From contig CH464492.1 of assembly GCA_000002445.1 (NCBI GenBank), forward strand, positions 1 through 64,000: DNA of 64,000 nucleotides. The letters are read 5' to 3'. The first letter of the stretch is position 1; every line of letters begins with the position of its first letter. The stretch comes from Trypanosoma brucei. Lineage: Eukaryota. Shown piece after piece: positions 28,603-51,935 of this stretch. The notes below the pieces were generated by a model. The model searched no databases. It saw nothing but the letters and a program-made list of their open reading frames with translations, and had not been told where the DNA came from. Position numbers and translations under genes: made by a program.

Positions 28603-28849
28603 TTAATTGTTAAAGGGTTTTTCCTCAAATTTATGAATTTATAAAACTTGCTATTTTGAGAAAAATTGGTACACCTATTGTAACACGATATATTTTAAGG
28701 ATTTTTGACGAAAGGTTCAAGACTATTGAGAATTATAGTATAATGTGTATCACGGTAGCATATGTGTACAAGGTATTATAGTTGTAGGGTATGAAAATTG
28801 ATTTCTATTCTCATTTGGTTAATCTTGTTTATATTATGGATATTGGTTA

Positions 28850-28915
28850 GTTTATAATAATAACAATTTTAGTAGTGTGTTGTGAGTGTGTATATACGAA
28901 TATTATAATAAGGGT
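28850..28915 (+). repeat. 70-bp repeat unit
   Basis: TAATAATAACAATTTTAGTAGTGTGTTGTGAGTGTGTATATACGAATATTATAATAAGGG. Confidence 0.7.
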
Positions 28916-30097
28916 GGTGGTTGTACAAACCTAAAAGTTAAGAAAAATAGAATCACTTCAAACAATTGCATAGGCAAATGTGAATACGAGAGGGAGTGAG
29001 CAATGGAAGGGGAGAGGAAAGGAAATCGTGTATTTGCAGTGCCAAACTCAAAAACTTCGACAGTCATAGACTTACACATTGGGATAAAGATAATAAAGAA
29101 AAGGGAGTGGCATGGTTCAGTGTATATATTGATGAGATAGACATTTTCTCTGCAATGAAAGTAAAAGAAAGCTAAAAGAAAGGAAATAGTTTCGAGGGAA
29201 ATAAATGGATGAGCTAGACCACGGTGCAAACGCACATGATACAGGAGGCGCAAACATCGATATCAATTATTTTGCTTACAAGTAGAGAGATGGACATGCA
29301 GAGAAGAAAATAGTTGGACCGTAGTTTTTAGTCTGATGATGCAACACAACGTAAAATGTTGAGAACAGGGGGCGGCAATTGTTGAATGGATGAGGGATAT
29401 TTAGTGTCGCAAGGAATAAAGAAGTGGGACACAGGGAAAGAGAGAGTAGAGCCTATTTTGAACTTAATACGTAAACTAATTGAATACTATCAGCTATTAT
29501 CACTGGAGGATTTCCGTTTTCATTCGTATGTAAAACCTTGGCAAAACAACCACACCAGAGCTTTATAGGGGGAAAGTGTATCAAGGCAATTTTGTAGAAA
29601 AGAAAAAACCACAACCTTCATACACGAACCTAATTGTGCTGCAATACTTTTTTTTTTAAATTTTCTTCGTGCCTTCGTGAGAGTTTCCCCCCACTGGCGC
29701 GGCCATCAGCCATCACCGTAGAGCCCTGAGATGCTATCGGTCTGGCAACTGTGGTAGAGTCTCCCTTTTTTTATTCAGCCTAACACACTCTCTATAATTT
29801 TTGTTGTAGCTCCACAGTTGAACGGAATACAGCAGATGGGGCGAGAAGCCCCCCACCCCAGACTCTCCCAAAGATGTCAATTAGCAATCCTTTTGTTTTG
29901 ATTTTTGTTATTCGTTTATTATTCTCTCCCCCTCTTTCTGTTTGTGTTGCTTGTTGATTGCATACCTCCTCTGTCTCTGAGGGTGTCTGGACTATTCCTG
30001 CGTCCGGTGCTTTTCCTGCTAGCTACACTCTCGGCAATAAGGGGGGAAGTTGCAGAAGGGAGAGTGGGTTGTATGACTGTTACATTAGGTGAGGACT

Positions 30098-31636
30098 TCA
30101 CCTGCGGCCGGCTCCGTTCAACCGCAATGAGAAACTGTGCCAGCCTTTTAGAGAAACATATATCCTGCACACACACACACCTTCTACCGCAAACCCGACA
30201 CGTAACTCCTTCAAACTGGGACAGCTCATCAAGTGCAGCGACGTTTCTTCGCAGTCGCCGCGTTGGCTGGTAACAGCACGCTCTACCTTCATACCGTGCA
30301 TCTTCTTTTGATGTAGGGTGAGGCCAGTTTTGCTAGCACACTGCCTTCCGCATGTCGGGCACACCAACATGGATGTGTTTGTATGCGGGGAATCAGTGGC
30401 ACACAATTTTGTGCTTTTGCTGCATTTAAGCTCGACTCCCTCACCTTTGTGGAAAGCCTTACAGTGTCGGATGAGGGAGTTCCTGCAACTGAGCACTTTT
30501 TGGCACACACCACACTGCACCTCGCCTTTCCCCGGGACGTCAACGTTTCCCTCACGGGTACACTTACGAGGGAATTGCACCACCACCACGGTACCGTCCT
30601 CCGTCACTATGCTCTTATGCTTGAATTTCTTGTGTAGTGACAGGGAAGAGCGTGTACCGAAGCTCGCCTCGCACAGGTCACATTTAAACGGCAGCTTCCG
30701 TGTATCCTGAGAGGCTGGCGCTGCTGGGACGCTACCATCTCCTTGCACTGAGTCCTCGTTCTCTCGCCTCCTTTTCACGCGGCAACTACCGCTACCTATG
30801 CCATGTATTGTTCTAAGGTGGTGTAATAGTCGGCCTGGCACTGCGAATTTGGAGGCACATAGTGTACAATGAAGCACCTGCGGTCTCATCGGGACTCGTG
30901 TGCTCGATGGTAAAGGAACGATCGCCACCACTGGAGGGGGCTCCGGGGGGATATCCACTGCAGGTGTTACATCGTCGTATTTGATCCTCCGGAGGGCATC
31001 AGCTCGCACAAAGCCGTTTTTGTTTACCATATGCGTTACAGCACTCGAGCGGCATTGGTATGTGGTATCACATTCCGTACATTTGGTCGGTTCGGAGGTT
31101 CTCTGAAGAGTGCGTGTCGCAACAGTTGGGGTTGTTTGTGTTTGTATTGTTGGCCCTATCGCTGCATGTTTCTGGTTACACCATCGGCACTGTGGAGACA
31201 CACTCGGGTTGATCTTTCGCAACATCCATCCATAGTATCTTGAAGACCCAACACGAAAGCGTGCCAGTGCCGTTTCTTCTTCCCTCGTTAGTTCTTCTTT
31301 ATGTTTTGTTGGAAAGTGGTTGCCAGTGATACCAAACCTATGAGTGTTCTCATGGACTTCTTCCGACCTAAGCACTCGCTTCGCATAAGCAATGATGTCG
31401 GGGATCCATGTGTCTCGCAAGTGTGGTAAACCAGCGGCCTTTTTGGTCATGTCATCGCAAACCTCATTCCGTTTCACGCCACAATGGACGAACACAAATT
31501 GCAGTCGGATAAGCACCTTCCTTCTCTGAACTTGAAGCAGAAGCCTCCATAGTCGTCTCAGAATTGGGTCCGTTACGGCTAGGGGGCCTGTCTGCAGTGC
31601 TTTTAACATTGACAGCGAGTCAGAGAAAATAGACAA
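30098..31636 (-). CDS. ingi ORF segment: RNase H-like domain plus five C2H2 zinc fingers
   Basis: …FVHCGVKRNEVCDDMTKKAA… (RNase H motif); CTECDTTYQCRSSAVTHM; HCTLCASKFAVPGRLLHHLRTIH; FKCDLCEASFGTRSSLSLHKKFKH; CGVCQKVLSCRNSLIRHCKAFH; CPTCGRQCASKTGLTLHQKKMH. Confidence 0.85.
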   Translation of the reverse strand: MSIFSDSLSMLKALQTGPLAVTDPILRRLWRLLLQVQRRKVLIRLQFVFVHCGVKRNEVCDDMTKKAAGLPHLRDTWIPDIIAYAKRVLRSEEVHENTHRFGITGNHFPTKHKEELTREEETALARFRVGSSRYYGWMLRKINPSVSPQCRWCNQKHAAIGPTIQTQTTPTVATRTLQRTSEPTKCTECDTTYQCRSSAVTHMVNKNGFVRADALRRIKYDDVTPAVDIPPEPPPVVAIVPLPSSTRVPMRPQVLHCTLCASKFAVPGRLLHHLRTIHGIGSGSCRVKRRRENEDSVQGDGSVPAAPASQDTRKLPFKCDLCEASFGTRSSLSLHKKFKHKSIVTEDGTVVVVQFPRKCTREGNVDVPGKGEVQCGVCQKVLSCRNSLIRHCKAFHKGEGVELKCSKSTKLCATDSPHTNTSMLVCPTCGRQCASKTGLTLHQKKMHGMKVERAVTSQRGDCEETSLHLMSCPSLKELRVGFAVEGVCVCRIYVSLKGWHSFSLRLNGAGRR

Positions 31637-32400
31637 CCTGCTCGGTGTGCTTCTGCATACCGGAAGCCATTTCAGCAGCCGTTGCAGTCCTATCTCTAAT
31701 GCTACGCATTCCGCTCTGTAACTGCATGAGAGTTCCCCTGCTCCGGTCTTGGGTGCACGAATCAGCGCTCGCTTCTATAGAGCAGGGCAGCTGCCTCGGA
31801 CTTCTCACCGAGGGACACGGATCCATCAGTCCACAATTCGTAGTGCTCTCGCCGCGGTGGCTCCTTCCCCCTCCGTGCAAAATGCCGTTCAATCCACTTT
31901 TCGGAAGCCTCTCTTTTGGCATCGTCAGGGTCATCAGCGCACGCAGGCTTTATCTGCGTGTGAAATAGTGATCGGCAGCTGTGGCGGAGCGTCGATGTCT
32001 CTAGTAGGTGCTCGCGTGGCTCAATGCGGAGGTGAAGGTAAGACCGCATGGTGCGGGAATGTAGGGCTTTGACTAGATGTTTGCTGTGGTATACTTCCTC
32101 AGCACTGCGCCGCAAACATCCGCCTCGTGACTCACACATCAGCATGAATTTCATGCTGCGCACAAGAGTGGTCGTCTTGAGTGGCAGGAGGTTTGCCTCC
32201 AGCAGAGAGTCCTCTTTGCGCGTCCCATGGGGTATGCCAGCTATGATGCAACTGGCTTTGTGTTGTGCTGCTGAAAGGAGGTCCCGACTTCGTTCCGAAG
32301 CGTCCCAGTACCATACCTCAATGCCATACATGGTGTGTGCCTGTACGAGTGCTAGATAAAGAGCTCTCAACACTTGTCGTCTTGGCCCCCATGTAGAAGC

Positions 32401-34065
32401 TTATATGGCTGCTATCTGCAGTAGTCTGAAGTTCATCTTGCGTCTCGTTTCGGCCGCATGTGTTTCCATCCCTTGCAGACACTGGAATGTTACTCCTAGA
32501 AGCTTCGGTGTCCCGTCAGCTCCTATTCTTTCGCCGTCCAGTTGCAATGTAAGGGGGTGGCGCTCTGTACACCCGAAGAGTGTGCACTTTGTTTTCGCTA
32601 TATTGACAGACATGAAGTACTCTTTTGACCACTGTAACATCACGTTTAGGCCGCATTGTAGTGTGTGGTTGATGACATCCCTCTCTGTGTGCCTCGCAAG
32701 AGCGTCAGGTCGTCTGCAAAGAATCCGTGCTGCAGTAACGGCACTTCTGCAAGGCGTTGGCTCAACGAGTTCATGACAATAATGAACATGATTGGGCCAA
32801 GGACAGTTTCCTTGTGGCACTCCTCGCTCAAATGTTCTGCTGCTGGAAAGCTTCTCCTTGAATCTCACTCTGCCAGTTCGGTTACTCAGAAATGATACGC
32901 ACCACTTCACAATGTGGGGTGATACCTTCATTCTGTGCATTTCCCTCGCAATTTTGTCGTGGTCCACTGTATCAAATGCCTTCTCGTAGTCGACGAATAC
33001 AGCACCCGTACGATATTGGTGCGTGGGACGGCAGAGGGCAGCGCGGACGTGCAGGAGTTGTTCGAGTGTTGAGCATCCGGGGCAAAAGCCTGATTGCTGC
33101 GGCGTCAGCTGGGACTCAACAGTGTCTCTAAGTCTCGCGGCAATTATGCACTCCATGACTTTGCAGAGACAGCTCGTGAGCGTCACAGGCCTGTAAGAAT
33201 CGAGGTCCTCCCACTTTTTTCCGGCCTTCAGGATGGGGATGATAACACCAGTCTTCCATGCAGACGGCACGACTCCCGTTCGTAGGCTCTCATTGAATAG
33301 CCTCAGAACAACATTCAGTGCTGTTCTACCGAGATGTTGCAGTGCCTCGTTGTATAAGCAATCAGGTCCGGGTGCGGATCCACTCGGAAGCAGTTTGATC
33401 GATCTCCGTAGTTCAGCCATCGTGATGGGACTGAACTCACTCGCTATCGTCTTTATGGGTGCCGGTGGGTGTGAGTCGGGGTGCCTTCTTGCGCGGGACG
33501 AGTACAGTTTACTGAACCTCTCAGCTTGACGGTAGTCCGTGATGGCCGCGTTATCAACAAGCACAGCCGGTGTGGTTAGTGGTCGTGGTGCATATACCTT
33601 CTTGACAATGTGCCAACTGCAGCGGTCTGACACCGCAAGTCTGGAGCATAGCGTGCTCCATCTCTTCTTTGTGGTACGGTCCAGGATCTGCTTACGCGTG
33701 GCTACCAACTTTTCCCTTCTGTGGGAGGGTCCGCATCCAGCGATCTCTTCATCGAGTTTCGGGAGTGTATGTGTCCAATGTGGTGGCGTTGCTCTGCAGC
33801 CACGGGGGACGGAGACCTTCGTCGCAATGCGGATGGCGGAGCTCAATTTCTGTTCCAGGGTGTTGACGTTCTTCTCTCTACCAATTTTCCTGCAGAGCTC
33901 GTCAACCTTGAGACGGAAATTCCTCCAGTCAGCTTTTAGCCATGCGTACATGGGCTTTCGAAGCCGCGGGCAACTCAGTGCATCTGTGTCGTCTCCAACG
34001 ATAACGTCGAAAAATATGTGATGGTGATCGCTATCGGGAGAATACAGCGATGTCCACGTGTACAC
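32401..34065 (-). CDS. ingi ORF segment: reverse transcriptase domain
   Basis: …VFVDYEKAFDTVDHDKIAREMHRMKV… (RT motifs). The adjacent ORF 32646..32831(-) contains …HGFFADDLTLL… (YXDD-type active site). Confidence 0.85.
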   Translation of the reverse strand: MYTWTSLYSPDSDHHHIFFDVIVGDDTDALSCPRLRKPMYAWLKADWRNFRLKVDELCRKIGREKNVNTLEQKLSSAIRIATKVSVPRGCRATPPHWTHTLPKLDEEIAGCGPSHRREKLVATRKQILDRTTKKRWSTLCSRLAVSDRCSWHIVKKVYAPRPLTTPAVLVDNAAITDYRQAERFSKLYSSRARRHPDSHPPAPIKTIASEFSPITMAELRRSIKLLPSGSAPGPDCLYNEALQHLGRTALNVVLRLFNESLRTGVVPSAWKTGVIIPILKAGKKWEDLDSYRPVTLTSCLCKVMECIIAARLRDTVESQLTPQQSGFCPGCSTLEQLLHVRAALCRPTHQYRTGAVFVDYEKAFDTVDHDKIAREMHRMKVSPHIVKWCVSFLSNRTGRVRFKEKLSSSRTFERGVPQGNCPWPNHVHYCHELVEPTPCRSAVTAARILCRRPDALARHTERDVINHTLQCGLNVMLQWSKEYFMSVNIAKTKCTLFGCTERHPLTLQLDGERIGADGTPKLLGVTFQCLQGMETHAAETRRKMNFRLLQIAAI

Positions 34066-35491
34066 TGTGCAATTCCTTCACAGTGTCACATCAGGGCTGG
34101 ACTCCCCGTGGTGGCGTGCGTACCTGGTGCACTCACCAGTGTTGCAGACCAGAAACTGGTTGTCAATGCACCACTGTGTGAGGGTTTCACCCTTGGTATT
34201 TGGTGAGCTCGCGCGATCCCATGCCAACGCGTGTACGTTAGCGTCTGCACCGATGAGCTGGACACCGTCAGTCGACAGAAGCGTATCTATGTCATTTTCC
34301 GTGAAGTTGTGTTTTGGTGGGATGTATGCCGACGTGACGGTCAGCGCCTTTCCATGTGTAAGGTGAATTGTTCCATGCACTTGTTCAATGCGACCAACAA
34401 CGGCCATACCGGTCTCGACTGGTAGGTCTTCCCTCACTAGTATTGATACACCACCTCCTTTGCAGTTACGAGCTATTCCGTGATGTTGGTAGCCATCAAC
34501 GCTAAAGCAAGCGGCTTCTCAAGGCGTCATCCTTGTCTCGCTCAACAGACAAAAGGCGATCCGCTCATCAACAAGGGTTTTGTGGAGTGCTAATCTCTTT
34601 CCTTGAGATAGCCCGGCGCAGTTCCACTGCATCCCGCGCAACGACAGGCCGGGATTCTCTTCCACATCACCGGACAGCAGCATCTTAGTGCGGATGATAT
34701 TGCTGATGGCACGCTGGCACGTGCCTAGGGACCGACAAATGAAAAAGTGTGTGTCCCAGCAAGACGCTGCTGATCCCTGTGCTGTATGATGCCGTAGCCG
34801 GAGCAAAGCAGTGTTCCCCATGAAAGGAACGCTGCTGGATCTTGGCTTCCCCCGATGATACGGGGTACTGGACCCTGGCACCACGTTGAGGTGGCCGGCA
34901 TCGCCAGGGAAGAAAAGAAGTCAGTTGTTACAGATGCCAAGTTTAATTTCTTCGATGAGTTTCTCGTTTCAATTATAAAACATGCCACACCTTATCTAAA
35001 TCCAAAATTTCAACATTTATGATCCTTAGTGGCCTCTATTAACTTAACTAATGTAGCTACCCCATTTGACCTGTACACTAATATTATTATCCCCATTGCT
35101 GTCCTCCGAATCATTTACATGAGTTAACAAGAGTAGCCATATTCATATTTGCTGTGAAACTGCGCATGTACCATATCTTTTCTTTTCCTCACCATTTCCA
35201 CTTATTTACTGCCTTTTTGCCGTGGCTCTGGTATATCCTATCATTATCATTATCCTTTCTATTATAACCCTAAATAACATCAATACAGAAAAAAAACTAA
35301 AGTAGTACAGGACTACTTTTTCATTTTTTCACTCTGCTAATTGTTCCCATAGTTCACCATGATACATATTACTTGAGTTATAAGATTTAAAAAAATCTCA
35401 ATATTTTCATTAATTTGCGTAGTTTTATCAAAAAGTATTTAAAAATATCAATCTTTAAAAAATTCTGTCAAAGTAGAAAATATTTCGTAAA

Positions 35492-37040
35492 TTATATATG
35501 ATTAAGAAAAATTCTTATAGTGCTATAATACTTAAAATGATACAAACCCATAAAAGCGGAAGATATCAGAGGCAATTTCTTACTGACGAGAAACCTGGAA
35601 TATTTGCAATCTTTTCCTTCCCATTGGCATTTATCATTTTCGCATGCGGTTTTATTGTCTTTGTGTTGTTTGCATTGTTGCCGCCTGGCTTTGTCTACTG
35701 CTGGTTTCGCTCCTTCTGGCGGGCCAGCCGCCGCTGTCTGCTTCCCTGACTGCGGTATGTGCATGTAAGCTATGTTATCTGCTAGTTTGCGCTTGGCTTC
35801 TACTGCCTCCTTGATGCTTTCTAACCTCATTACTGCACTCTCGTGTTCGTGCAGTCTGTCCGCTACCGTTTTTAAATTCTTGAGCCAGCTGATCTGCTCT
35901 GTTGGGTCCCCTGTCGTCGTTGTTATTGTTGTGTACTTGACGCACATGCCCTGGCCTGTTACGCCCGAGCAGCCTGTTCCGAGGTAAGCACCGAGGTAAG
36001 CGTCGCTGGCGGTTTTTCTCACGAGGTGAGCGACGTCACTTATTCTTCTTGTTAGTTCGGCGGCCGTTAGTTTAATTTGTGTATTTGTGTTGCACAGTTG
36101 TTTCACGTCTTTCATGGCGTCATCACTTGGGTTTGAGTTGGCTGTCCACGTGTTTGTTAGTGCGGCGGAGCCGCTGCACGCTTTGCCTGCGTTGGAGCTG
36201 TTGCTGCCGTCGGTTGCACACACACATATCAGCGTTGCAAATGCCGTATTTGCTTTTGCCGCACCCCCGTCGCCTGCGCAATTCGCACTCCTCGAGCCAC
36301 CTGGGTTTGCCGAAAACGCTTTGTACGTTGTGCCCGTGAATCCTGGCTCTTCATCCTGCCCATACACCGCCTTGTTTATCGCCTTGTGAAGTTCATCGTC
36401 GCTTATTAATTTTTTTCCTTTCGCCAGCTGCTTTGCTGACTTGTCGAGGGCCATCGCCTCCGCCGCCAGCGCTTGAATGTAAGGCCGGAGATGGTCTCGT
36501 GCTCTGCTGCTTGGCGAGTTCAGCTTGTACTTTTTTTCAGTGTTTGTTCGTTTGCTGTCTTCCAAGAGATTTTCAGCGGCTTTGGCCCACACTGCCCATT
36601 GCTGCGTCCAGTCTGTCCCTTCCGGTAGTTTTTTTTTTGTTTAGGTCTCTCGGTTTGTCCCGGTTTTCGTCGTCTCTGAATTCATTTATCCATTCTTCTG
36701 TTGAGGCTGACATGTTGAGCTCGAATATTTCCTGCAAGTCGCTTCCTTCTGCAGGTTGGGTCTTCGCTACTGTCGCACGTTTGCCAGCTAACTCAATCAA
36801 TGCGCATAGTGATGCCCTTTCCCGCTGGTTTGCGTCGGCCATGATGTTTCCGCGTGCTTGTCGGCGTAAGTACAGCGTTAAAAATATTGGAAAAAATACT
36901 TTTCCGAGCATGGTAGACTGCGTTTGTGCCTTGCTTAGTGGATTGGAGGGCTACAGAGTGCATTTGAAAAAGTATGTCCGTTGTGGCTGCTTCCTCCAGA
37001 TCCCACAAGTGTATCAGGTACTTGTCCTTATTTAGCGTTG
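35492..37040 (-). pseudogene. VSG pseudogene on minus strand (frameshifts in N-domain; C-terminus reads through the GPI signal)
   Basis: ORF 35492..36592(-) contains …YLGAYLGTGCSGVTGQGMCVKYT… (b-type N-domain) and C-terminal …CKQHKDNKTACENDKCQWEGKDCKYSRFLVSKKLPLISSAFMGLY…. N-terminal pieces lie in ORFs 36573..36911(-) and 36793..37008(-). Confidence 0.7.
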
Positions 37041-38819
37041 CAAATTCTTCTAGTTTATATAATTCTACTACATTTTACTTCATAACCTAGTGAAATACGT
37101 TTGTACATCACATCGGCTTTTTGGCAGCCCCTTTTAAATAAATAAATAAATAAATAAATAACCGGTCCTTTGAATAAAGCTATTAGCAAGAACAGGCTTC
37201 TGTTGCTATTTGGTTGTAACATTGTCTCAACATACCGGTGTCTCTTGAGAATGTCCCGTTGTGCTTGGACATCGATGGTGGAAATCCCAGCCTTGCCGCC
37301 AACCAGCAGTCTGCCAAAAGTATGTTCCTGTCAGCAAGTTCCTCTGCCGGCTGCGAGACCGTCTTTAGTAACTATTGCGTAAAGATCGTGCACCCTGGTG
37401 TTTAGCCATCTTCTGGTAGCCGTATCGTCGGGAGTCCTTGAATCACTGTAGTTTGCTGGTCCAACCTCTAAAGTTTATTCTTATATTATTGCTTTTTTGG
37501 AAGTATACTCGGCTCCACATTATTTTTCCGCGATGGGTTTTTGCAGGTTTAGCGGCTGTTGCTGTTTAAATGGGTTGATCATGCGCCAAATGTAAGCTTA
37601 GTGCGTCTGCAATGTTTATTTTCCTCTATTATTTCATGTCGTTAAACTTGGCTCTAAAGAAAGCTGTAAAAAGTTCAAAATACTGCTTAAGAACAATTTT
37701 TCTTTACTGCATTTTACCATGTAAGGTAGACTCATTTGCGGTCTTTCAAGCAACATCATTTCTGGCCACTAAATCAGGCATTTGAGGTACATTTAAACCC
37801 TTTAAATTGTCGAACCTAGAAAAAATGAAACGTTTCCCTCTATCTAATAACTTTGCCTGGTCGGGTTGGTATAAGGGTTACTAGGAATCACTGTCTGTAG
37901 GCAACTTTGAGACGAAGTAGCAGTTTTTTTTTCCTTCACTGTTTTGATCAATTCTCCACTTGTTGTTCTCCTTTATAAATGTACCTGTATTTTTATCACA
38001 AAGTGCAAGGTCGTGTCTACATATCATCTGTGCGGTTGCGCGTGCTTTGCTACCTTTCGTAATTCTGATTCGTGACAAAGTTTTCGAGAAGTCACATAGC
38101 TTTATTAGGAATATTATCTGCTGCAGATTGCCGCACAGCCAAGATATTGTTTTAACAAGAAATAACTCATTTTTCTAAAAAATATTGTGAACGTACCTGT
38201 AATGGTGCTATTGGATGCCTTCCACTTGCGCTGTTTCTTTATTTAAGTTCTAGCGATCACCTTTGGCCACTACACTGAACTATTTCTCTTGTTCTTTTTC
38301 CCTCCCACTTCATCATCTCGTTGTGTTTGATGTTACCTATGAACATGATTGTATTCTAAACCTCGCATATTCCATACACCTCTCCCCCTTGCTGTCTTTC
38401 TGTTTTTTCTCTATTAATATTCTTTGTTATTTTTCCTAGCCAGTTACTTGTTAACATTCCATCCTTTTAATTCTGTTAAGTGCTAATATTTTTCCGGGTA
38501 TTTCGTTTTACTTCCACTATAACATTAGCATTCACACACTCATAACACTTTCATCTCATTATTATTATTTATTATTATTATTACCCTAACTAATATTTAC
38601 TAAAAGAAATCTGATAAACAAAATTAGGGTACCGCTAAATTTTCATACCATATCACCTTACTATATTACAGCCATAGGCTATTTTTATACCATAATTTAG
38701 TATTTTCTAAATCTGTACATTTCGCAAGGTTTTACAAAATTATTAAAACATATCGAAATTTACCAATTTTAACAAAATATCAAATTTTTATAGAGTTTGA
38801 AAAACATCTTTATAATGCT

Positions 38820-40335
38820 AAAATCATTTCATACTCAAGAGAGAAGCAGTCATATGAGAAATATTATTATTTTCCAGATAACTAGAGTCCTGGCACTTGC
38901 CTTTAATCCAACCGCAAACAGCTTTTTTGTCTTTTGGGATATCGCCTTTTACTACAGCACATTCTTCAGGTGTTTTGGCGGCACCACACTTGTCTGTTGT
39001 TGTTTCAGTTCCTCCACCTGCTTGAGTTGCTTGTTGTTCTGCTGCTTTTACTGAGTCTAATGAGCATTTTTTATTTGTTTCAGTTGCTTTTTCTTCCCAT
39101 TTTCAGGGTTCTGTGCATTTGTCTTTTGATTGAAGTTTGTTGCAAGATTCCTTTGCTTCTTTTTCTTGCGGTGCTCCTGTGACCGTGTTGGGTTTGTTGG
39201 TTGCTGCTGCACTTATCGCTGCTACTTTGCTGAGCGTTAGGAAATTGTACGTTTGCCAAGCCGATGTGTTGGTTGCTTGTAGCGCCGCCTTTGCTGCTTC
39301 CACCTCTCTTGTCCCAATTGCTGCCTGCTCCAGTTTATCTCTGGCGTCGAGTAACTTCCCAACCCATTCCAGCTTACCTATTGGGTGTTTGTTAAGTTTT
39401 GCCGAGTAGTCTATGCATGTGGTCGCAGACTCCGCGCCAGTGCAGGTTGCTGCCGCGTTGTTTCCAAGTTTGTTGTGGGCGTTAGCTCTGTCCGTTATGC
39501 CTTTGCCAAGGGCGCTCTGGAAGTTTGCCAGAGCTGCCGTGACCGTGTTTACTGTTTTTTCTGTGTCAGCTGAGGCTCTCTTACAGTGGGACTTTATGTC
39601 GGTCCATGCCTGCAGAGCGTTGGCTGCGTCGTCGGCTGCGCTGGTATACCGTGTTGATCCTATGCCGGTCCCGCAGATATTGGCCCCGTCTGTTGCTCCG
39701 GAGCAGAGGCAAACGAGATCGGCTGTAATGGTTTTGCCTGGGCCGTGAGTGCCTCCGCCGGCGCACATCTGGGCATGGGCTGCGAAATCGGTTTGCTTGG
39801 CATCTCTTAGGACGGCGTCGCCGATTGCAGCTTGTGCCAATGCCTTCCTTGCGAGGCTCAGATGCCCCTCGATGTCAGCTGTCGCTTTCCTAAGGTTTTC
39901 CGCTGCTGATTGCGCTTGTTTCCTGATGTCCCCCAGTTGCTTGTGTACTTCTTTCTTCAGAGCTGATTGTTCCGGCCGCTTTATTTTCTGGTTACCTTTT
40001 TCGTCCTTGTGGTTTGTTAGTTCTGTTTTGGCTTGCGTCCAGTCCTCTTCTGAGGCACTGTATTCCCAGTATGTTTTGTTAGCAAACAGTGCGTCGTCTG
40101 CGGTAGCGACAAAAAGATGAGTTACATCCGATGGTATGGTTGGTGCCGCCGAATTACCAGTGTAACGCTCCGCTGTAATAGTTCCTGTTGCCGCATTGTA
40201 CGCTTCGCATAAGGCTGAGAAACCAACGGCGTTTTCGTCGTTCGCTTTTCTTTTCAACGATGCCGCGGATAGTACGAGCGACAAACAAAATATTAGCAGC
40301 GCTTTCTGCCTGGGTTCGGTGCAGCGGTGTGACAT
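38820..40335 (-). pseudogene. VSG pseudogene on minus strand (a-type N-domain intact; stop and frameshift in C-domain; degenerate GPI signal)
   Basis: ORF 39103..40335(-) has signal peptide MSHRCTEPRQKALLIFCLSLVLSAASLK… and ends …CNKLQSKDKCTEP*. The C-domain continues in another frame (…GAAKTPEECAVVKGDIPKDKKAVCGWIKGKCQDSSYLENNNISHMTASLLSMK*), whose tail is not hydrophobic. Confidence 0.7.
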
Positions 40336-40699
40336 GGTTGAACGTTATGTAGATTACAGTGTGAAATGGCTTACTTGAGTGTATAAAAATAAATGAGTTG
40401 TTATGAGGTGGTTCTCCTCTCGTGTTGCCAGTTGCTACGTGGATCTTGGCAGTGATTGCCTTGCATCTATTCTTTTGTCTTCAACGATGTTGGTTGCTTC
40501 GCCTCGTTGATAAAGGCAATCACAGACCTATAATTTTTCTCCTTCAAAGAAATCCACTTCTATAAATATATCCCCAGAAACTTCCCGACACTCAAAATCC
40601 TATTTCCTTCCATCTATTATATACGTTTGAACTTTACCCTAAAATCTCTCAGGCTAAACTGCATCCTTTCCAATTACTTATACCAAGTAAGATTTTTCA

Positions 40700-41400
40700 C
40701 AATCAGTCTTACTTTCTCCTCCCATGCAATTGGATGCCCAGGAAAATAAATGAATTCAGCCGCTCAAATCCCACCACTGTTTGTAATACAAAAGAAACTC
40801 TCTCGAAAATCCAATCCAATCATTCCTCTCTCCAAAACAAATCTCTGTCCAGCAGCTTCCGCCTGAATTGCACTCCAAATTAGTAAAGGCTTGTAAATAC
40901 TCTGCTCTGACCACCATTCCAAGCGGACATTTCAATAACTCCCAAAAATGCATATTCAAATATCTTAAATGCCCATACTCTGGCTATTAAACCTCCTCCA
41001 CTAAGATAAGGTTTTCCACTTGTTTGTGACATAAGTTGATGAGGCAACTTCTTATCCTCTTCTTTTCTGTAACCGAAAATAAACAACTAGTAATATCCCT
41101 CCATACTCTTATTGTAAATATCCTCCTCTCTAAACTTATCTTCATTTTCTGCAGTATTTTTTATAAAATATTCCACAGCACTCTCATACTTATTTCCATC
41201 ACTAACAATAACATCAAACCCATTAACATTTATTACAATATCCTCATCACATGCATTCTGTATCTCAAAAACTTCCATAAACCATCTGGGCCTTTTAACA
41301 TGGCTATACAAACTTCAGATCGCAACTGTAATAATTTCAAGATGGCTTAGTTTGGCACTCAATATCAGCCTACACCTTCTTGAGTTGTATGAGTTTGTAC
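40700..41400 (-). pseudogene. Conserved array-associated ORF family, copy c (minus strand, frameshifted)
   Basis: ORFs 41087..41311(-) MYSHVKRPRWFMEVFEIQNACDEDIVINVNGFDVIVSDGNKYESAVEYFIKNTAENEDKF… and 40880..41086(-) …YRKEEDKKLPHQLMSQTSGKPYLSGGGLIARVWAFKIFEY…. Confidence 0.55.
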
Positions 41401-41984
41401 AACAGCCACAAACGCTCTGTGATTCTTAGGTTGATTCTCTGTCACATTTGTTTTGTTATTTGCTTCATCTTGATGTGATATTGCACTTAAACACACTAAA
41501 TGTTATAGCAACATTAAGAGTAAAGTTCGCAAGACGCCGAATTTTACCTCCTAGGAAACTTTCAAAATTTGAAAAATATGTAATAAAAAAATAAATGGCT
41601 TAGGAAAAGGAGATATAACCACAAGGAGAATTTTAATTTTGAACAAGTTTCCAATTCTGATAAGAAAATATACTTCTCTGTTTCTAAATCTAAAATTTCA
41701 ACATTTATGGTCTGTAGTGGGCTCTTTTTTTTTTACTAACGTCACTACCCCATTTGACCTGTACACTAATATTATTATCTCCATTGCTGTTCTTTAAATA
41801 ATTTACATGAGGTAACAAGAGTGGCCATATTCACATTCTTTCTGAAATGCGCATGTCCCGTACCTTTTTCTTTCTCTCCCTGTCCGCTTACTTACTGTCT
41901 TTTTGCCTTGGCAATGGTATATCTGCTACTATTGCTACAGTCCATTTACTTTTAAACACTGTTTTTATTATAATTTTAGCATGC

Positions 41985-42135
41985 ACACTCACAACAGTCT
42001 CCTATTATTATTATCATTATTATTATCATTATTATCACTATTACTGCTCTTATTATAATATAGTATGTACACTCTCCCAACACACTCCTATCATTATCAT
42101 TACTATTATTATTATTATAAACATAACTAATATTT
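41985..42135 (-). repeat. 70-bp repeat units (reverse complement orientation)
   Basis: …TATTATTATCATTATTATTATCATTATTATCACTATTACTGCTCTTATTATAATATAGTATGTACACTCTCCCAACACACTCCTATCATTATCATTACTATT… is the reverse complement of the 70-bp unit. Confidence 0.8.
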
Positions 42136-42389
42136 ATAATATAAGCAAATCAAAATAGCACCCGCTTTTTATGCCCTATTATCCTATTAATTTACTTCCA
42201 GGCGCCTCTATCGTACAAAGATTTCATATTGTTGAGTTTCAAAATTTAATATTCTGAACAGTTTCCACATTTTCACTTAAAAGTGTTAAAATGCAAAAAA
42301 TTTTAGTGCGTTTCATAAATTTATAAAATTCAGTATAAGTCCATATAATATTAAAATACTACAATCATTTTAAATTCAGAAACTATCAG

Positions 42390-43852
42390 GGCGAATTTTT
42401 GTTTACTAGAATAGAAGAATCTTTGCAAGTTTCGCCCTACAACTTACAATCTGGAGATTTGCAGTCATCCTTTTCCTTATCTTTGCATTTCTCCTCTTTC
42501 TTTTCTTCTGCTTTCATTCCCTCTTTGAGTTTGCATTTTCCTTCTTTGTGTTCTCAATCTGGGTCTGCTGTTCATTTACTTTGTTCTGTGTCTTCTTTGC
42601 ATTTTTCTGTAGTTTTTGATTCTGTAGTGGTCTTAGGTTTAGCTTGTTGTTGTCTGCTGTTTTCTTTCCAGAAAACAACTGCTATTGCTTCACCAAAATT
42701 TGCAGTTTTAGAGACTCCTACTATGTCTGGGTTGCCGTTTGTGGAGCCCACATTGCACGTTATTTTGTCATTTTTTAAGGGTTCAATGAACTCCTTGTTG
42801 ATATCGCTTGTATCTGGTCCGTATACTTCCGTTATTGCGGCTACCCAGTCCCCGTCTATTGCCGTTAGAGGTATCGATCCCTTCGTGAGAAGGAATGCTA
42901 TCTTCGCTGCCGGTGACCCTTTGGCTATTTGCTTGCGCGTCAGACTTGCTGCTTTCGCCTCTGGTTTTATCAGGACTTTTTTGGCTTCGCACACCTTGTT
43001 TAACAGTGTCTTTTCTGAAATTACTAGTTTAAGCGGCTGGTCGTTGACGACGCAGCTCGTGTCGTCCGGTCCTGTCTTTCCTAGTGCTTGTTTGGCTGGC
43101 TGCGTTATTGCCGCCGGGGATTGACTAGGCTTTGCTCCTACACCGTGAGTCACTGACCCTTTCGTTTCCGCGTTTGCTCCACAGTATCCGGCTTGCTTAG
43201 CGCCGGCTGTACTGACGCTCCGGCGCTGCTCTGCATGTGGATGTCAAATGAAAGCTGCATGGGTTTGAGTTCACTGTTTGGCGTTAGTGCTAGGTGCTTT
43301 AGTTCCGCTATTTCAGTGCTGANNNNNNNNNNNNNNNNNNNNNNNNNNNNNNNNNNNNNNNNNNNNNNNNNNNNNNNNNNNNNNNNNNNNNNNNNNNNNN
43401 NNNNNNNNNNNNNNNNNNNNNNTCGACTTGGGGCGACCATTGAGCAGCTGGCCCAGTACGCCGTTCCGTTTTTGCAGCGCTTCAATTGCAGCCTCTATTG
43501 TGCTTGCTTTTTCTTTCAAGACTTCCTGCTGTTTGATTGCCGTCGTCGCTGCTATTGCGCTGAGGGCTGTGTACAGCAGCTTCCTCTTACTGTCGTGTGT
43601 TGCTGTGGCCGCGAGAAAAAACATGCGCGTCTCAGTGTTGAGGTCCGAAAGACGCTGTTGGGATTCTTGGACATTTATCCTTAAGTGTTCGGCCAATTTC
43701 TTGTTAAAATAGATTTCGGCGCATGTGGTTTTGACCGCTGCTAGGCTTCCGGGGTCTGCTGGTTGCGCAGTTGCGAGGGTATCTAGAAGAAACACCACCA
43801 TTATAGCAGCGATTCTTCTCTTTGGTTCGTGCATCTGCATTCGCCTCCTCAT
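42390..43852 (-). pseudogene. VSG on minus strand spanning an assembly gap; stop inside the [12 protein letters not shown] motif
   Basis: N-terminal ORF 43313..43852(-) MRRRMQMHEPKRRIAAIMVVFLLDTLATAQPADPG… (signal peptide) runs into the N gap 43323-43422. ORF 42572..43153(-) is the C-domain. The terminal frame reads …[21 protein letters not shown]…. Confidence 0.65.
43323..43422. other. Assembly gap (N run)
   Basis: Run of n characters. Confidence 1.
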
Positions 43853-44449
43853 TTTGTGCTTAACTTGAGTTAGGATTGATCAAATGGGACATGCAAGTTC
43901 TGTACGTGTTGTTTTGGCCACATAGGAACGTTGGTCTAATCAATGCGATTTGCGTGACCTATTGTTACACAATCCAAACACAAAACAATATCTTCCCATT
44001 TCCACCTGCCCGTTCTATGCCCTCTATCATAAACTATTCTCTCTTCATCAAATACTCTCGATTGCCCATACAGCTTCGTTTACTTCACCATGGAAATATC
44101 TTTCCCAGTGATATTCGATTTAAGCACTAGTTTTCTAGTGAGTAAAGCTGTTTTTCTCATCTACAACTGATTAAAGTGCAGCTTCCTTTCAGTTAGCTTA
44201 TATGCTGTTCCCCTTTCCACTTGTAGTTCGTGCGCTATTCCTGAAGCTAGTCTCGCAGTTAGTTACGCTCTGTAGATTATTTTGTTTTTTGAATTCACTG
44301 TGTGTGCATATAGTAGTTTTGTTGTGTTTTTAAATGCTATTGGACGCATTTTCGTATGACTCTTTTCTTCAATGTGCATATTAATGGGCGAAATTTTTAC
44401 AATACGCTAGCTAAGAGGAGGAAATACGTTTATATACATCATGCCAAAT

Positions 44450-44549
44450 NNNNNNNNNNNNNNNNNNNNNNNNNNNNNNNNNNNNNNNNNNNNNNNNNNN
44501 NNNNNNNNNNNNNNNNNNNNNNNNNNNNNNNNNNNNNNNNNNNNNNNNN
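44450..44549. other. Assembly gap (N run)
   Basis: Run of n characters. Confidence 1.
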
Positions 44550-44769
44550 CCACTATCATAATAATTTCATATTTCCTATTCTAAATTTTTCCAATTTCTA
44601 CGTTTGTAAAGTTTTATAAAAGTGTCAAGATATATAAATTTAGAAAGCGTTAGCATATTTTTCAAAATAGCAAGTTTCATAAATTTTATAAAATAAGCAA
44701 AAAATCTTTGAAATTCTAAAATGTTGCAAAGATCATAAAAGCAGCAGCCATCAGAGCGAATTTCTTATT

Positions 44770-45700
44770 GACGAGAAAACTTCTATTTCAGTACTTTTAG
44801 GTATCCCTGTCGTTTTCACCATCTTTGCCATTTCTAAATGCACAATTTTGTTTGTCGCCTGTTTTGTCAACTAGGCAAGCCTCCTTATTGGTTCTGTGGC
44901 TTGCACACTCAGCTGTAGCTGCTGCTCCACCTGAAGCTCCTTCTACTGCTGCTCCTGCTGCTCCTGCTGCTGGGTTTTCTGTTTCTCCTTTAGGTTTGCG
45001 CTTGTTGTTCTCAGTATCATGATTACAACCAAGGGTTTGGCATCCCTCTGTACTTTTTTCTTTCCATAATTACACTTGCTTTGCGCCTCTTTTTTCCCAG
45101 TGTTTGTTGCTTTATTTTCTACCCGAGTTACTTCACTTAGGTCAGCAAGCTCGGCGTCTGCTAGTGGCAGCAGGCTGTATGCTAGTTTTCGTGCTGTCTC
45201 TAGCTGCGCTTCCAGTTCTTTTAGTTCGCTCTGCGCCTCTTCGTGTTGTTGTTGGAGTTTCGCAGCCTGCTGCAATTCCTTGATCCACTGTATTTTAGTA
45301 AACTTGCCTTGTGCTGTTTTTGTGTTGGCAGCGTACATGACACAAACTCCGTTGGTATCCGTGCCATCACAGCCTGTTTTGGAGAAATGCCCGAGGTAAA
45401 CATCTGTGGTCTTTGATTTTACTTGTGCTAAAAGCGCCACTAATTTGCTGTGGATTTCGGCTGTCGTGGGGCTGCTGATGTCTGGTTGCGGGCAGAGATT
45501 TAGCAGATTGGCCATTAGTTTGTGGCCGTTTGTGTCGAGCTTTAAGTTTGATTCCGTTTGCGACGATTCGCAGAACCGCTGGCTCTCACTGTCGTAGGCG
45601 CAGAGTAAGAGAATTAACTTGGCTATCTTATTTGCTTTGGCGTCTGTATTGGGCGCACCGCATCCTTTTCTGTGCCGGTGCATATGTTTAATATGTCATT
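44770..45700 (-). pseudogene. VSG fragment on minus strand (mid N-domain to degenerate C-terminus; no signal peptide)
   Basis: ORF 44943..45683(-) contains …VYLGHFSKTGCDGTDTNGVCVMYAANT… (b-type N-domain motif) then a QQEQQEQQ low-complexity stretch. A GPI-like tail lies in another frame. Confidence 0.6.
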
Positions 45701-46379
45701 GAACGTTATGAAAGCCTGTTCCTCTATTGGTCTTAGTAACTTCCTGTAAACAGCCATTTGCTTGCCTGTCGCTTTTCCATACAACGCTCTGCCAGGATCG
45801 CTTGCCGCTGATCATCGCTTGACACCTTCTTTGCTTTCTCTTTCTAGTACGTCTCTCGATGACCAGGGGCTGTTGTCGCTTTGGATAAAGGGGATGGTTT
45901 CTGTGGTGAAGATGGGGGTTCGTTGTATCCCTTGATAGCCTGCTTCCAACTCCTCGTTCCTATTGAATTGTTCAGTTTTGCAATGGCCAAATAAGATTCC
46001 TTGGCTGCGGCTTCTGAGAGTTTCTTCGAGGCAGGACGTTGTGCTAGGTTGACGAGGTCACAAAGTTACAGGAAAAGGTGCGTGTGGTCGCTAGCCGCCA
46101 CTGCCTGACACCTATGTGTTTGGCATGCTATTAAAGCTATCGTTGCCAGGGTGGGCTGTAATAAGCGTGGCCTTTCCAACTGCATTACTGCGTTGCTGGC
46201 TTTTTTCCCTTTCTTTTTTGACTTGCTAAAGGTTTTAAACTGGTGTGTCCGTAGATGTTTTGATTTGAGATTAGCTTCCTGATTAATTTCTTGTTATTGT
46301 TGGAATGATTGTTTTATCACAATTCTATTTTCTGAAACAACGCTTTTGTTTTACGGTCTCTACAATGAATTTTTTTCCA

Positions 46380-46860
46380 GTCGCCAAACCCTCAGGACCA
46401 TGCAGTCTGTCCACTTGTGGGTAAGGAAGAAATGCATTTACGCACACCACGCCGCGAGAACATGGTGGTAGTGTGTGACTCAACGCTGGATACTGGCGTT
46501 CCTACCCACTAAAATCCCCTGTTTTTGGAGAATTGATACCCACGGGTGGGCGACCGCATGTGCGCGTGTCTAGGGGGGGTCTCCATTTGACGCCCATTCG
46601 ATCCCTCCCACATTGCGTCTGAACCATGTTTACCATATCCATTTGTCTCCCTGGACGGAAGTTGTATCAGGTATTTTTGGTTCCCACACCTGAGCAGGGT
46701 GCTGGACCGTAGAACACTAAGTATTGGTTTTCTCCCCACGGAGCGGTCGCATCATATCCGGTGTTGTGGCCGCTGTTTGAATGGAACATTTGGCTTTCTA
46801 GTTGATTTCTCTTCTCGTACTAGACCCTGGCGCCACGTTGAGGCATATCCATTCTTAGTG
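46380..46860 (-). mobile_element. Degenerate retroposon fragment carrying the trypanosomatid retroposon 5' signature (ingi/RIME/DIRE-like)
   Basis: The plus strand GTACTAGACCCTGGCGCCACGTTGAGGCATATCC at about 46817-46850 resembles the ingi 5'-end block GGTACTGGACCCTGGCACCACGTTGAGGTGGCCGG (plus strand at 1036-1070; reverse complement of the minus-strand 5' terminus). The rest is highly diverged. Confidence 0.35.
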
Positions 46861-46929
46861 TAAGCTAAATACTCGCTGCCTTCGGGGATCGACCACGGTA
46901 CTATCTGCGACGAGCACTCTATTTCTCCA

Positions 46930-47790
46930 CTTAACAACTAAAGCAGGGCTGCAAACCACGCGGGACAACCAAAAACACGGGAGAATGGACCAACAACGCC
47001 GATGGTAAAGCTAAAACAGAGTTCCTAGACAGCACGTGCTCAGCGCTGCTAATACCGAAAGAACCCTCTTCAACGGAGCTACAACACAGGCTATCAGCAT
47101 TTCTGTACAAAGTAGACGGCGAGAAAGGCAGCACACAAACCTTCAACTTCGCATTCGCCGCAGTAGCAGGCACCGGCGACGGCTGCATCGGCAAAGTTAT
47201 AGGGATTTCTGGCTGATACGTCAAGTTGATGGAGAAAAAAATCAAGACAGCAGACCCAACATTAAAATGGCGGGTGCAGCTGCAGGAAGCGGCCGACGCA
47301 TGGGATGAACATCAGCATGCAAGAAGGCACCTGGAAGTTATAGCAAAAAAACCCAAACTAATAAACACAACAGCAGCGACATTGATATACATCAAAATAC
47401 CAAAGGCCATGAAGGATATAGGGAAGCCAACCGAAACCAAGCACACAAAAGGTTCAGTCCACTTCACTCACAAATCTAACATCACCTGCTCAGACAATAA
47501 CTGCAAATGGGATAACACCACAGAGAAGACAGGAAACCACTGCAAACCTAAAGATGATGCAGAGCAGACAAAGCAAGGAACGAAGGGAACTTTAGCGACG
47601 AATACTGAAGGGAAAAAGTGCTCTGAAAAGAAAAGTGAGGTCGAATGCAAATTTCCGGATTGTCAGTGGGAAGGAACAGAGCGTACAGATTACAGTATCA
47701 TTATAAATAGTAACATTTTCTCTTATTGTTGCTGCTCTTGCGAGTTTGACAACATGTTAGGTATACTAGCTCCATTTTACAAACAATTAT
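46930..47790 (+). pseudogene. VSG 3' fragment (C-terminal domain; degenerate GPI signal)
   Basis: ORF 47226..47798 contains …CSDNNCKWDNTTEKTGNHCKPKDDAEQTKQGTKG…KKCSEKKSEVECKFPDCQWEGTERTDYSIIINSNIFSYCCC…. Upstream frame: …AFAAVAGTGDGCIGKVIGISG*. Confidence 0.6.
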
Positions 47791-48009
47791 GCAACTAATA
47801 AAATTTGTTAAATTTGACAAATTTAAAATTTTTGATGAAAATGTGCAATTTTTTGAAAATTTTCGAATTTAACAAATTTGAAAATTTGATAAATATAGTA
47901 AATGTGCATAATAGTCACCTATTCTTAAAACAAAGCAGTGTGATAGGATGTGACAAGTTTCTTATTTGCTTATTTTACTTATTTTGTTTATTTAGTTTTT
48001 ATTAATTTA

Positions 48010-51883: not shown

Positions 51884-51919
51884 AAGAATTTCCCTTCTTT
51901 TTAAAATAATTTTGCTGTT

Positions 51920-51935
51920 TGATATATTTTAACAC
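51920..51935 (+). promoter_or_regulatory. Conserved VSG 3'UTR 16-mer
   Basis: Exact TGATATATTTTAACAC about 35 nt after the stop codon. Confidence 0.8.

What the first reader, a model, noticed from the sequence alone, without database searches (positions are those of the whole stretch)
34900..46950. About 12-kb inverted block bounded by retroposons at both breakpoints
VSGs, 70-bp repeats and array-associated ORF copies are on the plus strand at 1-28.6 kb and 46.9-64 kb. Between about 34.9 and 46.9 kb every VSG (35492-37040, 38820-40335, 42390-43852, 44770-45700), the 70-bp repeats (41985-42135) and the family copy at 40700-41400 are on the minus strand. The convergent junction is occupied by the full-length ingi at 29641-34908. 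The divergent junction (46380-46860) carries a degenerate retroposon 5' signature. The pattern fits a retroelement-mediated inversion, or a strand-switch seeded by retroposons.
Basis: partly seen in the sequence, partly recalled or inferred. Interest (0 to 1): 0.6.

Follow-up and report, generated by a model that had tools for sequence, protein, structure and literature searches.

The report
Opposite-strand VSG block beside retroposons
A 12-kb run of four surface-antigen (VSG) pseudogenes in a Trypanosoma brucei TREU927 subtelomere really does point the opposite way to its neighbours, and mobile-element sequence sits at both ends, but this is an ordinary retroposon-associated patchwork and not a demonstrable inversion.

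Summary
Between about 34.9 and 46.9 kb, four VSG pseudogenes, two 70-bp-repeat remnants and one copy of the array repeat lie on the minus strand. Strand composition flips at about 29.5 kb and 46.75 kb. A full-length ingi (29649-34909, minus) fills the convergent junction. The divergent junction has only a 27-nt piece of the ingi 5' signature (46817-46843, 25/27), heading a roughly 0.5-kb GC-rich body that cannot be aligned to ingi or RIME.

The window comes from the T. brucei brucei TREU927 reference genome.

A single inversion by recombination between the two elements is not supported. Both are on the same strand, no target-site duplication or reciprocal exchange is detectable, and no split VSG halves match across the breakpoints.

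The window has two further polarity switches, at about 21-24.7 kb and at 27-27.9 kb. All four switches lie in gaps that hold ingi-clade sequence (P about 0.002). The ingi copies are mosaics.

The best reading is that ectopic recombination at dispersed retroposons joined array segments of different polarity.

Comparison with other strains was not possible with these tools. Both switch points lie inside contiguous sequence, away from the N gaps. Interest is low.

The parts
27889..28602 (+). 5'-truncated VSG fragment (C-terminal part with a GPI-signal-like tail). It is the last plus-strand gene before the convergent junction and starts at the N gap 27787-27886.
   Evidence: ORF translation; plus-type purine skew.
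28736..28921 (+). 70-bp repeat remnant of the plus-strand array. It is followed by 727 bp of purine-rich plus-type intergenic DNA up to the ingi poly(A) end.
   Evidence: blastn to the other 70-bp arrays; skew.
29649..34909 (-). Full-length, frameshifted ingi retroposon (ingi A) filling the convergent junction. Its 3' flank is plus-strand array and its 5' flank is minus-strand array. It has no 12-bp target-site duplication.
   Evidence: Pfam RVT_1 and C2H2 zinc finger; 94.6% identical over 5269 nt to the second ingi at 52659-57916; ends and flanks; mosaic identity pattern.
34995..35237 (-). Array intergenic segment repeated at 41683-41923 (82.7% identity). In the reference cassette it lies between the 70-bp repeat and the family repeat. 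Here it ends 85 bp before the ingi 5' end.
35492..37040 (-). VSG pseudogene (b-type N-terminal domain plus C-terminal domain).
   Evidence: Pfam VSG_B E 6.5e-50 and Trypan_glycop_C E 6e-13; degenerate 3'UTR 16-mer at 35435-35450.
38518..38690 (-). 70-bp repeat remnant.
38820..40335 (-). VSG pseudogene. The 410-aa N-terminal ORF is identical to ARB50712.1. The C-terminal domain is in another frame.
   Evidence: Pfam; phmmer; 88-90% identical full-length EATRO1125 VSGs of 503-504 aa.
40590..41534 (-). Copy of a repeated array DNA family. Plus-strand copies lie at 8.7-9.8, 20.0-20.6 and 49.0-50.0 kb. No protein homologue was found.
   Evidence: no Pfam hit; no protein hits.
41958..42157 (-). 70-bp repeats.
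42390..43879 (-). VSG pseudogene, probably a-type, interrupted by the N gap 43323-43422.
   Evidence: VSGsur 6z79 E 0.0016; signal-peptide-like N-terminus; VSG 3' end homology at 42377-42427.
44770..46185 (-). VSG pseudogene (b-type). Its N-terminus lies at about 46185, 190 bp from the relic.
   Evidence: Pfam; translation; 3' end homology at 44551-44781.
46376..46861 (-). GC-rich (51.8%) body of about 486 bp, headed by the signature fragment and ending at an A7 run. It is a SIDER-like degenerate short retroposon relic; the family is unresolved.
   Evidence: description of TbSIDER in PMC3820030.
46817..46843 (-). 27-nt match (25/27) to nt 19-45 of the ingi 5' signature.
46935..47798 (+). 5'-truncated VSG fragment (end of the N-terminal domain plus the C-terminal domain). 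It is the first plus-strand gene after the divergent junction and abuts the 5' side of the relic.
   Evidence: Pfam Trypan_glycop_C; tblastn; translation.

Best explanation
The 34.9-46.9 kb segment is a genuine opposite-polarity VSG sub-array in a T. brucei TREU927 subtelomere. Its two ends are rearrangement joints located at ingi-clade retroposons.

**Proposed mechanism.** Dispersed ingi or SIDER-like copies lie in the same absolute orientation in different arrays. They served as homology for ectopic crossovers or gene conversion between arrays. Each exchange leaves one chimeric element. That element has lost its target-site duplication, and its two flanks come from different arrays. Where the partner arrays carry VSGs in opposite directions relative to the element, a polarity switch results. 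On this view the block was patched in, or the chromosome end was exchanged, in two separate events. It was not flipped in place by recombination between the two elements seen today.

**Shown**
- The polarity of every feature.
- The positions and strands of the elements.
- The absence of target-site duplications.
- The mosaic make-up of the ingi copies.
- The association of all switches with retroposon sequence.

**Inferred**
- That recombination at the elements created the joints.
- That the relic is a short retroposon.
For: - Ingi A's 3' flank is plus-type array and its 5' flank is minus-type array.
- Its 5' flank matches the published ingi insertion motif in register at 5/10 positions (background mean 2.6; scores of 5 or more in 10% of positions). 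The 12 nt after its poly(A) tail do not repeat the 5' flank. So the 5' flank looks native and the 3' flank looks replaced.
- The minus cassette is cut off at the ingi. The segment 34995-35237 is normally followed by the family repeat and a VSG, and neither is found beyond the ingi.
- The ingi copies are mosaics. A versus C shows 9 differences in nt 1-600 and about 50 in nt 600-1075 (Fisher p = 4.7e-4).
- Ingi B, inside the plus-strand array, also lacks a target-site duplication. This fits frequent ingi-ingi exchange.
- All four polarity switches in the window lie in gaps that hold retroposon sequence. The hypergeometric P is 0.002.
- At the right junction a 5'-truncated plus-strand VSG abuts the relic's 5' side, while its 3' side is the upstream region of a minus-strand VSG.
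- The literature states that ingi and RIME recombine and cause rearrangements in T. brucei (PMC2854126), and that mobile elements accumulate at strand-switch regions (PMC4035085; PMC1868937).
Against: - No parental or partner locus was seen, so the exchange itself is inferred.
- The relic shares only 27 nt with ingi. It could not be compared with TbSIDER or DIRE consensus sequences, which were not available here.
- The lack of a target-site duplication is not specific to the junction, because ingi B lacks one too.
- The mosaic breakpoint cannot be assigned to ingi A as opposed to ingi C.
- The association test is post hoc, on one window of 17 gaps.
- Retroposon sequence makes up about 21% of the window.
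Confidence: 0.45

Rival explanations
1. In-place inversion. A formerly collinear plus-strand array segment of about 12 kb was inverted, with breakpoints at or in retroposons.
For: - The block is bounded by retroposon sequence on both sides.
- The cassette type on either side of the divergent junction is the same: 70-bp repeat, family repeat, then VSG, at 42.2-38.8 kb on the minus strand and 48.0-51.9 kb on the plus strand.
Against: - The two elements are direct repeats, not inverted ones.
- No reciprocal exchange of target-site duplications is seen.
- The truncated plus-strand VSG at 46.9 kb has no inverted 5' half next to the ingi. A VSG 3' end lies there instead.
- The mirrored cassettes are only 73-76% identical, no closer than to the plus-strand copy at 8.9 kb, and their VSG N-terminal domains are unrelated.
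- The reading could be rescued only by assuming a further, inverted element that has since been lost.
Confidence: 0.15
2. Bystander retroposons. The polarity switches arose by other means, such as VSG-array recombination or microhomology-mediated joining. Ingi-clade elements then inserted later, or persisted preferentially, in these non-coding junctions.
For: - Ingi-related sequence covers about 21% of the window, and ingi B lies inside a uniform plus-strand array.
- Ingi has a preferred insertion motif (PMC3820030).
- Accumulation of mobile elements at strand-switch regions is a known general pattern.
Against: - A later simple insertion should keep a 12-bp duplication at roughly the element's own divergence level of about 5%. 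In register only 2/12 positions match for ingi A.
- The minus cassette is truncated exactly at the ingi.
- Four of four switches at retroposon-bearing gaps is unlikely by chance (P = 0.002).
Confidence: 0.25
3. Assembly artefact. Either a mis-join through the 5.2-kb ingi repeat, or a wrongly oriented scaffold piece at the 100-N gaps of the Sanger-era TREU927 assembly.
For: - There are three 100-N gaps and a stray N in the region.
- Ingi copies are 92-98% identical.
- The neighbouring ingi D runs into a gap.
- Flipping the piece 27887-44449 would shrink the minus block to about 4 kb.
Against: - Both switch points lie inside contiguous sequence, in the pieces 27887-43322 and 44550-64000.
- No re-orientation of the scaffold pieces removes either switch.
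- The right junction holds no long repeat.
- The VSG at 42390-43879 reads consistently across the gap 43323-43422.
Confidence: 0.1

Closest known systems
Ingi/RIME-associated rearrangements in T. brucei genomes (T. b. gambiense versus TREU927 comparison, PMC2854126)
   Same: Ingi-clade elements lie at structural breakpoints. The literature states that they recombine and cause indels and rearrangements, and segmental inversions are reported.
   Different: Those cases were shown by comparing two genomes, mostly in chromosome cores. Here only one genome is available, and the event lies inside a silent VSG array.
Retroelement-rich strand-switch regions of trypanosomatid chromosomes (PMC1868937, PMC4035085)
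   Same: Changes of gene polarity coincide with ingi, DIRE or L1Tc sequences.
   Different: Those regions separate RNA polymerase II polycistronic units, and some are centromeric with AT-rich repeat arrays. Here the units are short runs of silent VSG pseudogenes. No AT-rich satellite is present.
TbSIDER1/TbSIDER2 short degenerate retroposons (PMC3820030)
   Same: Both are short, at about 0.5-0.6 kb. Both share only the 5' signature with ingi, end in an A-run, are inactive, and usually lack a target-site duplication.
   Different: Only 27 of about 79 signature nucleotides are present. The first 18 nt are missing. The upstream insertion motifs are not seen.
Subtelomeric patchworks built by ectopic recombination between dispersed repeats (yeast, human, Plasmodium; own knowledge)
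   Same: Blocks of contingency-gene arrays are exchanged between chromosome ends at shared repeats, which produces mosaic subtelomeres.
   Different: Not tested here. This is an analogy only.

Membership tests
Tbingi (autonomous ingi-clade non-LTR retroposon), for 29649-34909 | Length of about 5.2 kb with a reverse-transcriptase ORF and a C-terminal zinc-finger region | tested here: met
   The element is 5261 bp. Pfam finds RVT_1 (E 7e-27) and zf-C2H2. The near-identical copy B also shows the endonuclease domain. The ORF is broken into several pieces.
Tbingi (autonomous ingi-clade non-LTR retroposon), for 29649-34909 | Conserved 5' signature and 3' poly(A) tail | tested here: met
   The 5' end CCCTGGCG... 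is shared by three copies, and an A10 tail lies at 29649-29658.
Tbingi (autonomous ingi-clade non-LTR retroposon), for 29649-34909 | 12-bp target-site duplication, the mark of an undisturbed insertion (PMC3820030) | tested here: not met
   In register, ACTTCTTTTCTT is compared with GTATTGCAGCAC. The best off-register match is 7/12.
Short degenerate ingi-clade retroposon (TbSIDER or degenerate RIME), for 46376-46861 | 76-79 nt 5' signature | tested here: inconclusive
   Only nt 19-45 are present (25/27). Nt 1-18 do not match (3/18, read from the sequence).
Short degenerate ingi-clade retroposon (TbSIDER or degenerate RIME), for 46376-46861 | Body homologous to RIME (the two ingi ends) or to the TbSIDER consensus | tested here: not met
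   The RIME and ingi comparison was run and failed: local alignment score 51 against shuffles of 35 +/- 5 (maximum 55), and no ingi coding remnants. The TbSIDER consensus comparison could not be run with these tools.
Short degenerate ingi-clade retroposon (TbSIDER or degenerate RIME), for 46376-46861 | 3' poly(dA) stretch and a length of about 500-570 bp | tested here: inconclusive
   An A7 run lies at 46367-46375 on the minus strand, which gives about 486 bp. GC is 51.8%, against 32-44% for array intergenic DNA.
Inversion by homologous recombination between repeats | The repeats at the two breakpoints are in inverted orientation | tested here: not met
   Both signature copies are on the minus strand.
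Inversion by homologous recombination between repeats | Reciprocal exchange of flanks or target-site duplications, or split genes whose halves match across the breakpoints | tested here: not met
   No pair of flanks matches above chance. No VSG 5' half lies at the left junction.
Inversion by homologous recombination between repeats | Collinear, non-inverted arrangement in a related genome | not testable with these tools
   Exact-protein look-ups found no contigs. The homologues found carry no genomic context.
Silent VSG array cassette | VSG coding region with 70-bp repeats upstream and the conserved 3'UTR 16-mer downstream, all on one strand | tested here: met
   There are four minus-strand VSGs and minus-strand 70-bp remnants. 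The minus-strand 16-mers are degenerate, with 3 mismatches.

The most novel reading that the evidence does not exclude
Ingi-clade retroposons may systematically mark, and by ectopic recombination create, every polarity switch inside silent VSG arrays. They would then act as linkers that let whole multi-gene array modules be swapped between subtelomeres in either orientation. In this window, four of four switches fit that picture.
Probability: 0.25. Interest if true: 0.4.

Novelty: already known. Interest (0 to 1): 0.15.

Why it matters
If the patchwork reading is right, it adds one worked example of how the silent VSG archive is reshuffled in modules larger than a gene, with retroposons as the homology. 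That bears on how the antigen repertoire evolves between strains. It does not reveal a new kind of element or mechanism. Retroposon-linked rearrangements and retroelement-rich strand-switch regions are already described in trypanosomes, and the sequence is part of the published TREU927 reference.

Tried and rejected
1. **Synteny with other strains.** Five exact-protein look-ups of window VSGs found no contigs. A homologue search found only context-free VSG records.
2. **Naming the array-associated ORF.** There was no Pfam hit, no PDB hit and no protein homologue. I treat it as repeated non-coding or unannotated array DNA.
3. **Naming the relic.**
   - Alignment to RIME and ingi recovers only the 27-mer.
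   - There are no ingi coding remnants.
   - Its 76-aa ORF has no homologues.
   - Rfam finds nothing.
   - It is not VSG-like by tblastn or by composition.
4. **Target-site duplications and their reciprocal exchange.** I compared ingi A, B, C, D and the relic. The best pair was 9/12, which is chance level.
5. **Recent inverted duplication (palindrome) around about 45.3 kb.** The mirrored cassettes are only 73-76% identical, and the VSG N-terminal domains are unrelated. Rejected.
6. **Removing the switches by re-orienting scaffold pieces at the N gaps.** Each of the two large pieces contains a switch internally. Rejected.
7. **Literature.** Searches for an explicit statement on ingi at strand switches inside VSG arrays found only general statements. 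The 2005 genome paper and Marcello & Barry 2007 are not held.


Full report
**Source of the window.** The window is a subtelomeric VSG array of Trypanosoma brucei brucei TREU927. Two intact VSGs in it (16538-18088 and 50321-51880) are identical to XP_828095.1 and XP_828097.1, both recorded on a 286,308-bp contig. The 410-aa ORF at 39106-40335 on the minus strand is identical to ARB50712.1. Full-length relatives of 88-90% identity exist in strain EATRO1125. The window has one stray N (27772) and three 100-N gaps, at 27787-27886, 43323-43422 and 44450-44549.

**Check of the observation.** Four VSG pseudogenes lie on the minus strand inside the block.
- 35492-37040 has VSG_B plus the C-terminal domain.
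- 38820-40335 has VSG_B, with its C-terminal domain in another frame.
- 42390-43879 has no Pfam hit. It is similar to VSGsur (E 0.0016), has a signal-peptide-like start and has a VSG 3' end.
- 44770-46185 has VSG_B, and its N-terminus is traced to an ATG at about 46185.

Other minus-strand features in the block:
- 70-bp repeats at 41958-42157 and a remnant at 38518-38690.
- The array repeat at 40590-41534.
- Degenerate 3'UTR 16-mers at 35435 and 44622.

Every other VSG, 70-bp repeat and family copy in the window is on the plus strand. In these arrays the sense strand is purine-rich. The purine fraction of the plus strand drops from about 0.6 to about 0.42 at about 29.5 kb and rises again at about 46.75 kb. 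Four contiguous minus genes among 16 VSG units has P = 0.007 if orientation were random.

**The convergent junction.** A 5261-bp ingi (29649-34909, minus strand) has a reverse-transcriptase and zinc-finger ORF broken by frameshifts, a conserved 5' end and an A10 tail.
- Its 3' flank is plus-type array: a 5'-truncated VSG at 27889-28602, a 70-bp remnant at 28736-28921, then 727 bp of purine-rich intergenic DNA.
- Its 5' flank is minus-type array. The segment 34995-35237 is repeated at 41683-41923. In that reference cassette the segment is followed by the family repeat and a VSG. Neither is found beyond the ingi.
- There is no 12-bp target-site duplication.
- The 5' flank matches the published ingi insertion motif in register at 5/10 positions. 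Ingi B and C score 6/10. The background mean is 2.6, scores of 5 or more occur in 10% of positions, and scores of 6 or more in 2.9% (motif from PMC3820030).

The 5' flank therefore looks like the original target, and the 3' flank looks replaced.

**The divergent junction.** Only 46817-46843 matches ingi, at nt 19-45 of the 5' signature (25/27, minus strand; no such match occurs in shuffles).
- The first 18 nt of the signature are missing.
- The remaining roughly 440 bp do not align to ingi or to a RIME built from the ingi ends. The score is 51, against shuffles of 35 +/- 5 with a maximum of 55.
- There is no ingi coding remnant, no protein homologue, no Rfam hit and no VSG similarity.
- The body (46376-46860) has 51.8% GC, like ingi (52%) and unlike array intergenic DNA (32-44%).
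- On the minus strand it ends at an A7 run.

This fits the published description of TbSIDER elements: about 570 bp, sharing only the signature and a poly(dA) end with other elements, inactive, and mostly without a target-site duplication (PMC3820030). Membership could not be tested without a consensus sequence. To the right, a 5'-truncated plus-strand VSG begins at about 46935 and abuts the relic's 5' side. To the left lies 190 bp of AT-rich upstream region of the minus-strand VSG.

**Why a simple inversion is unlikely.**
- The two elements are on the same strand. Recombination between direct repeats cannot invert the DNA between them.
- No flank pair shows a reciprocal target-site duplication. 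The best pair is 9/12 in T-rich sequence, and 52% of shuffles reach that.
- A balanced inversion that broke the VSG at 46.9 kb should have placed its 5' half, inverted, next to the left breakpoint. A VSG 3' end lies there instead.
- The mirrored cassettes on either side of about 45.3 kb are the generic cassette type. They are only 73-76% identical, and their VSG N-terminal domains are unrelated. A recent inverted duplication is therefore also rejected.

**Wider context in the window.** All four long ingi copies or fragments are on the minus strand: 8-1080, 26995-27786 (running into a gap), 29649-34909 and 52659-57916. The last lies inside the plus-strand array, and it too lacks a target-site duplication.

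The left flank is not uniformly plus. ESAG1 pseudogene fragments at 24768-25343 and 26376-26630 are on the minus strand. That gives two more polarity switches:
- One at about 21-24.7 kb, where plus-oriented ingi/RIME fragments (20742-21310) and a weak DIRE-like ORF (21764-22726) lie.
- One at ingi D and its gap (26995-27886).

All four switches fall in the five of 17 inter-gene gaps that hold retroposon sequence. The hypergeometric P is 0.002, or 0.022 without the relic. The test is post hoc and covers one window.

The ingi copies are mosaics. A and C differ at 9 sites in nt 1-600 and at about 50 sites in nt 600-1075, and the informative-site pattern changes there (Fisher p = 4.7e-4). Recombination or gene conversion between ingi copies has therefore happened here.

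**Interpretation.** The best-supported reading is that the array is a patchwork. Ectopic homologous recombination between dispersed ingi-clade elements joined array segments. Polarity switches arose where the partner arrays carried VSGs in opposite directions relative to the element. The features, strands, missing target-site duplications, mosaicism and association are shown. The exchange events themselves are inferred.

Three rivals remain:
- An in-place inversion. This needs an inverted element that has since been lost.
- Bystander insertion at pre-existing junctions. This is weakened by the missing target-site duplication and by the cassette being truncated at the ingi.
- Assembly error. 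Both switches lie inside contiguous sequence, and no re-orientation of scaffold pieces removes them. A mis-join through the 5.2-kb ingi cannot be excluded. Flipping 27887-44449 would change the size of the block.

**Comparison with what is known.** The literature reports that ingi and RIME recombine and cause rearrangements in T. brucei, including segmental inversions between subspecies (PMC2854126). Ingi elements lie within subtelomeric VSG arrays (PMC3553974). Retroelements accumulate at strand-switch regions in trypanosomatids (PMC4035085; PMC1868937). This locus is an ordinary instance of that pattern in the annotated reference genome, so novelty and interest are low.

It could not be run here.

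Noticed in passing
window 18301-18341: A degenerate telomere-type repeat, (GGGTTA) x about 7, lies on the plus strand about 150 nt after the perfect 3'UTR 16-mer (18148-18163) of the intact VSG 16538-18091. A VSG C-terminal fragment follows at 18852-19098. This looks like a relic of a once-telomeric VSG copy that is now internal to the array.
   Followed up: partly
window 24768-25343 and 26376-26630: Two ESAG1 pseudogene fragments lie on the minus strand inside the supposedly plus-strand left flank (Pfam ESAG1, E 5e-40 and 3e-12). They create two further polarity switches, both next to ingi-clade sequence.
   Followed up: partly
window 20742-22726: Plus-oriented retroposon debris. It comprises an ingi ORF fragment (20742-20966), an ingi/RIME 5' end (21092-21310, 87% identical) and an ORF (21764-22726) with weak collinear similarity to the ingi zinc-finger region. 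This is the only ingi-clade sequence in the window on the plus strand.
   Followed up: partly
window 8-1080 versus 33839-34909: The ingi copies are mosaics. Copies A and C are 98-99% identical over the first roughly 600 nt and about 90% identical beyond, with a significant change in informative-site pattern (Fisher p = 4.7e-4). This indicates gene conversion or recombination between ingi copies.
   Followed up: yes
window 1029-1571, 27889-28602 and 46935-47798: Three 5'-truncated plus-strand VSG fragments each lie on the 5' side of a minus-strand retroposon. One abuts ingi C, one lies beside ingi D across the gap, and one abuts the relic. In the two cases where it can be checked, the VSG 5' half is not found on the other side of the element.
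   Followed up: partly
window 8733-9788, 19963-20611, 40590-41534 and 48977-49956: The array-associated ORF family is a roughly 1-kb DNA repeat, 74-84% identical between copies. It has no Pfam, PDB or protein-database relatives, so it may not be a gene at all.
   Followed up: yes
window 26995-27886: An ingi 3' part (ingi D) runs into a 100-N gap, with a stray N at 27772. The gap must hide at least 4.5 kb of the element, so distances across it are not real.
   Followed up: no
window 52659-57916: The second full-length ingi (B), inside the plus-strand array, also lacks a 12-bp target-site duplication. No 70-bp repeat lies between the VSGs on either side of it.
   Followed up: partly
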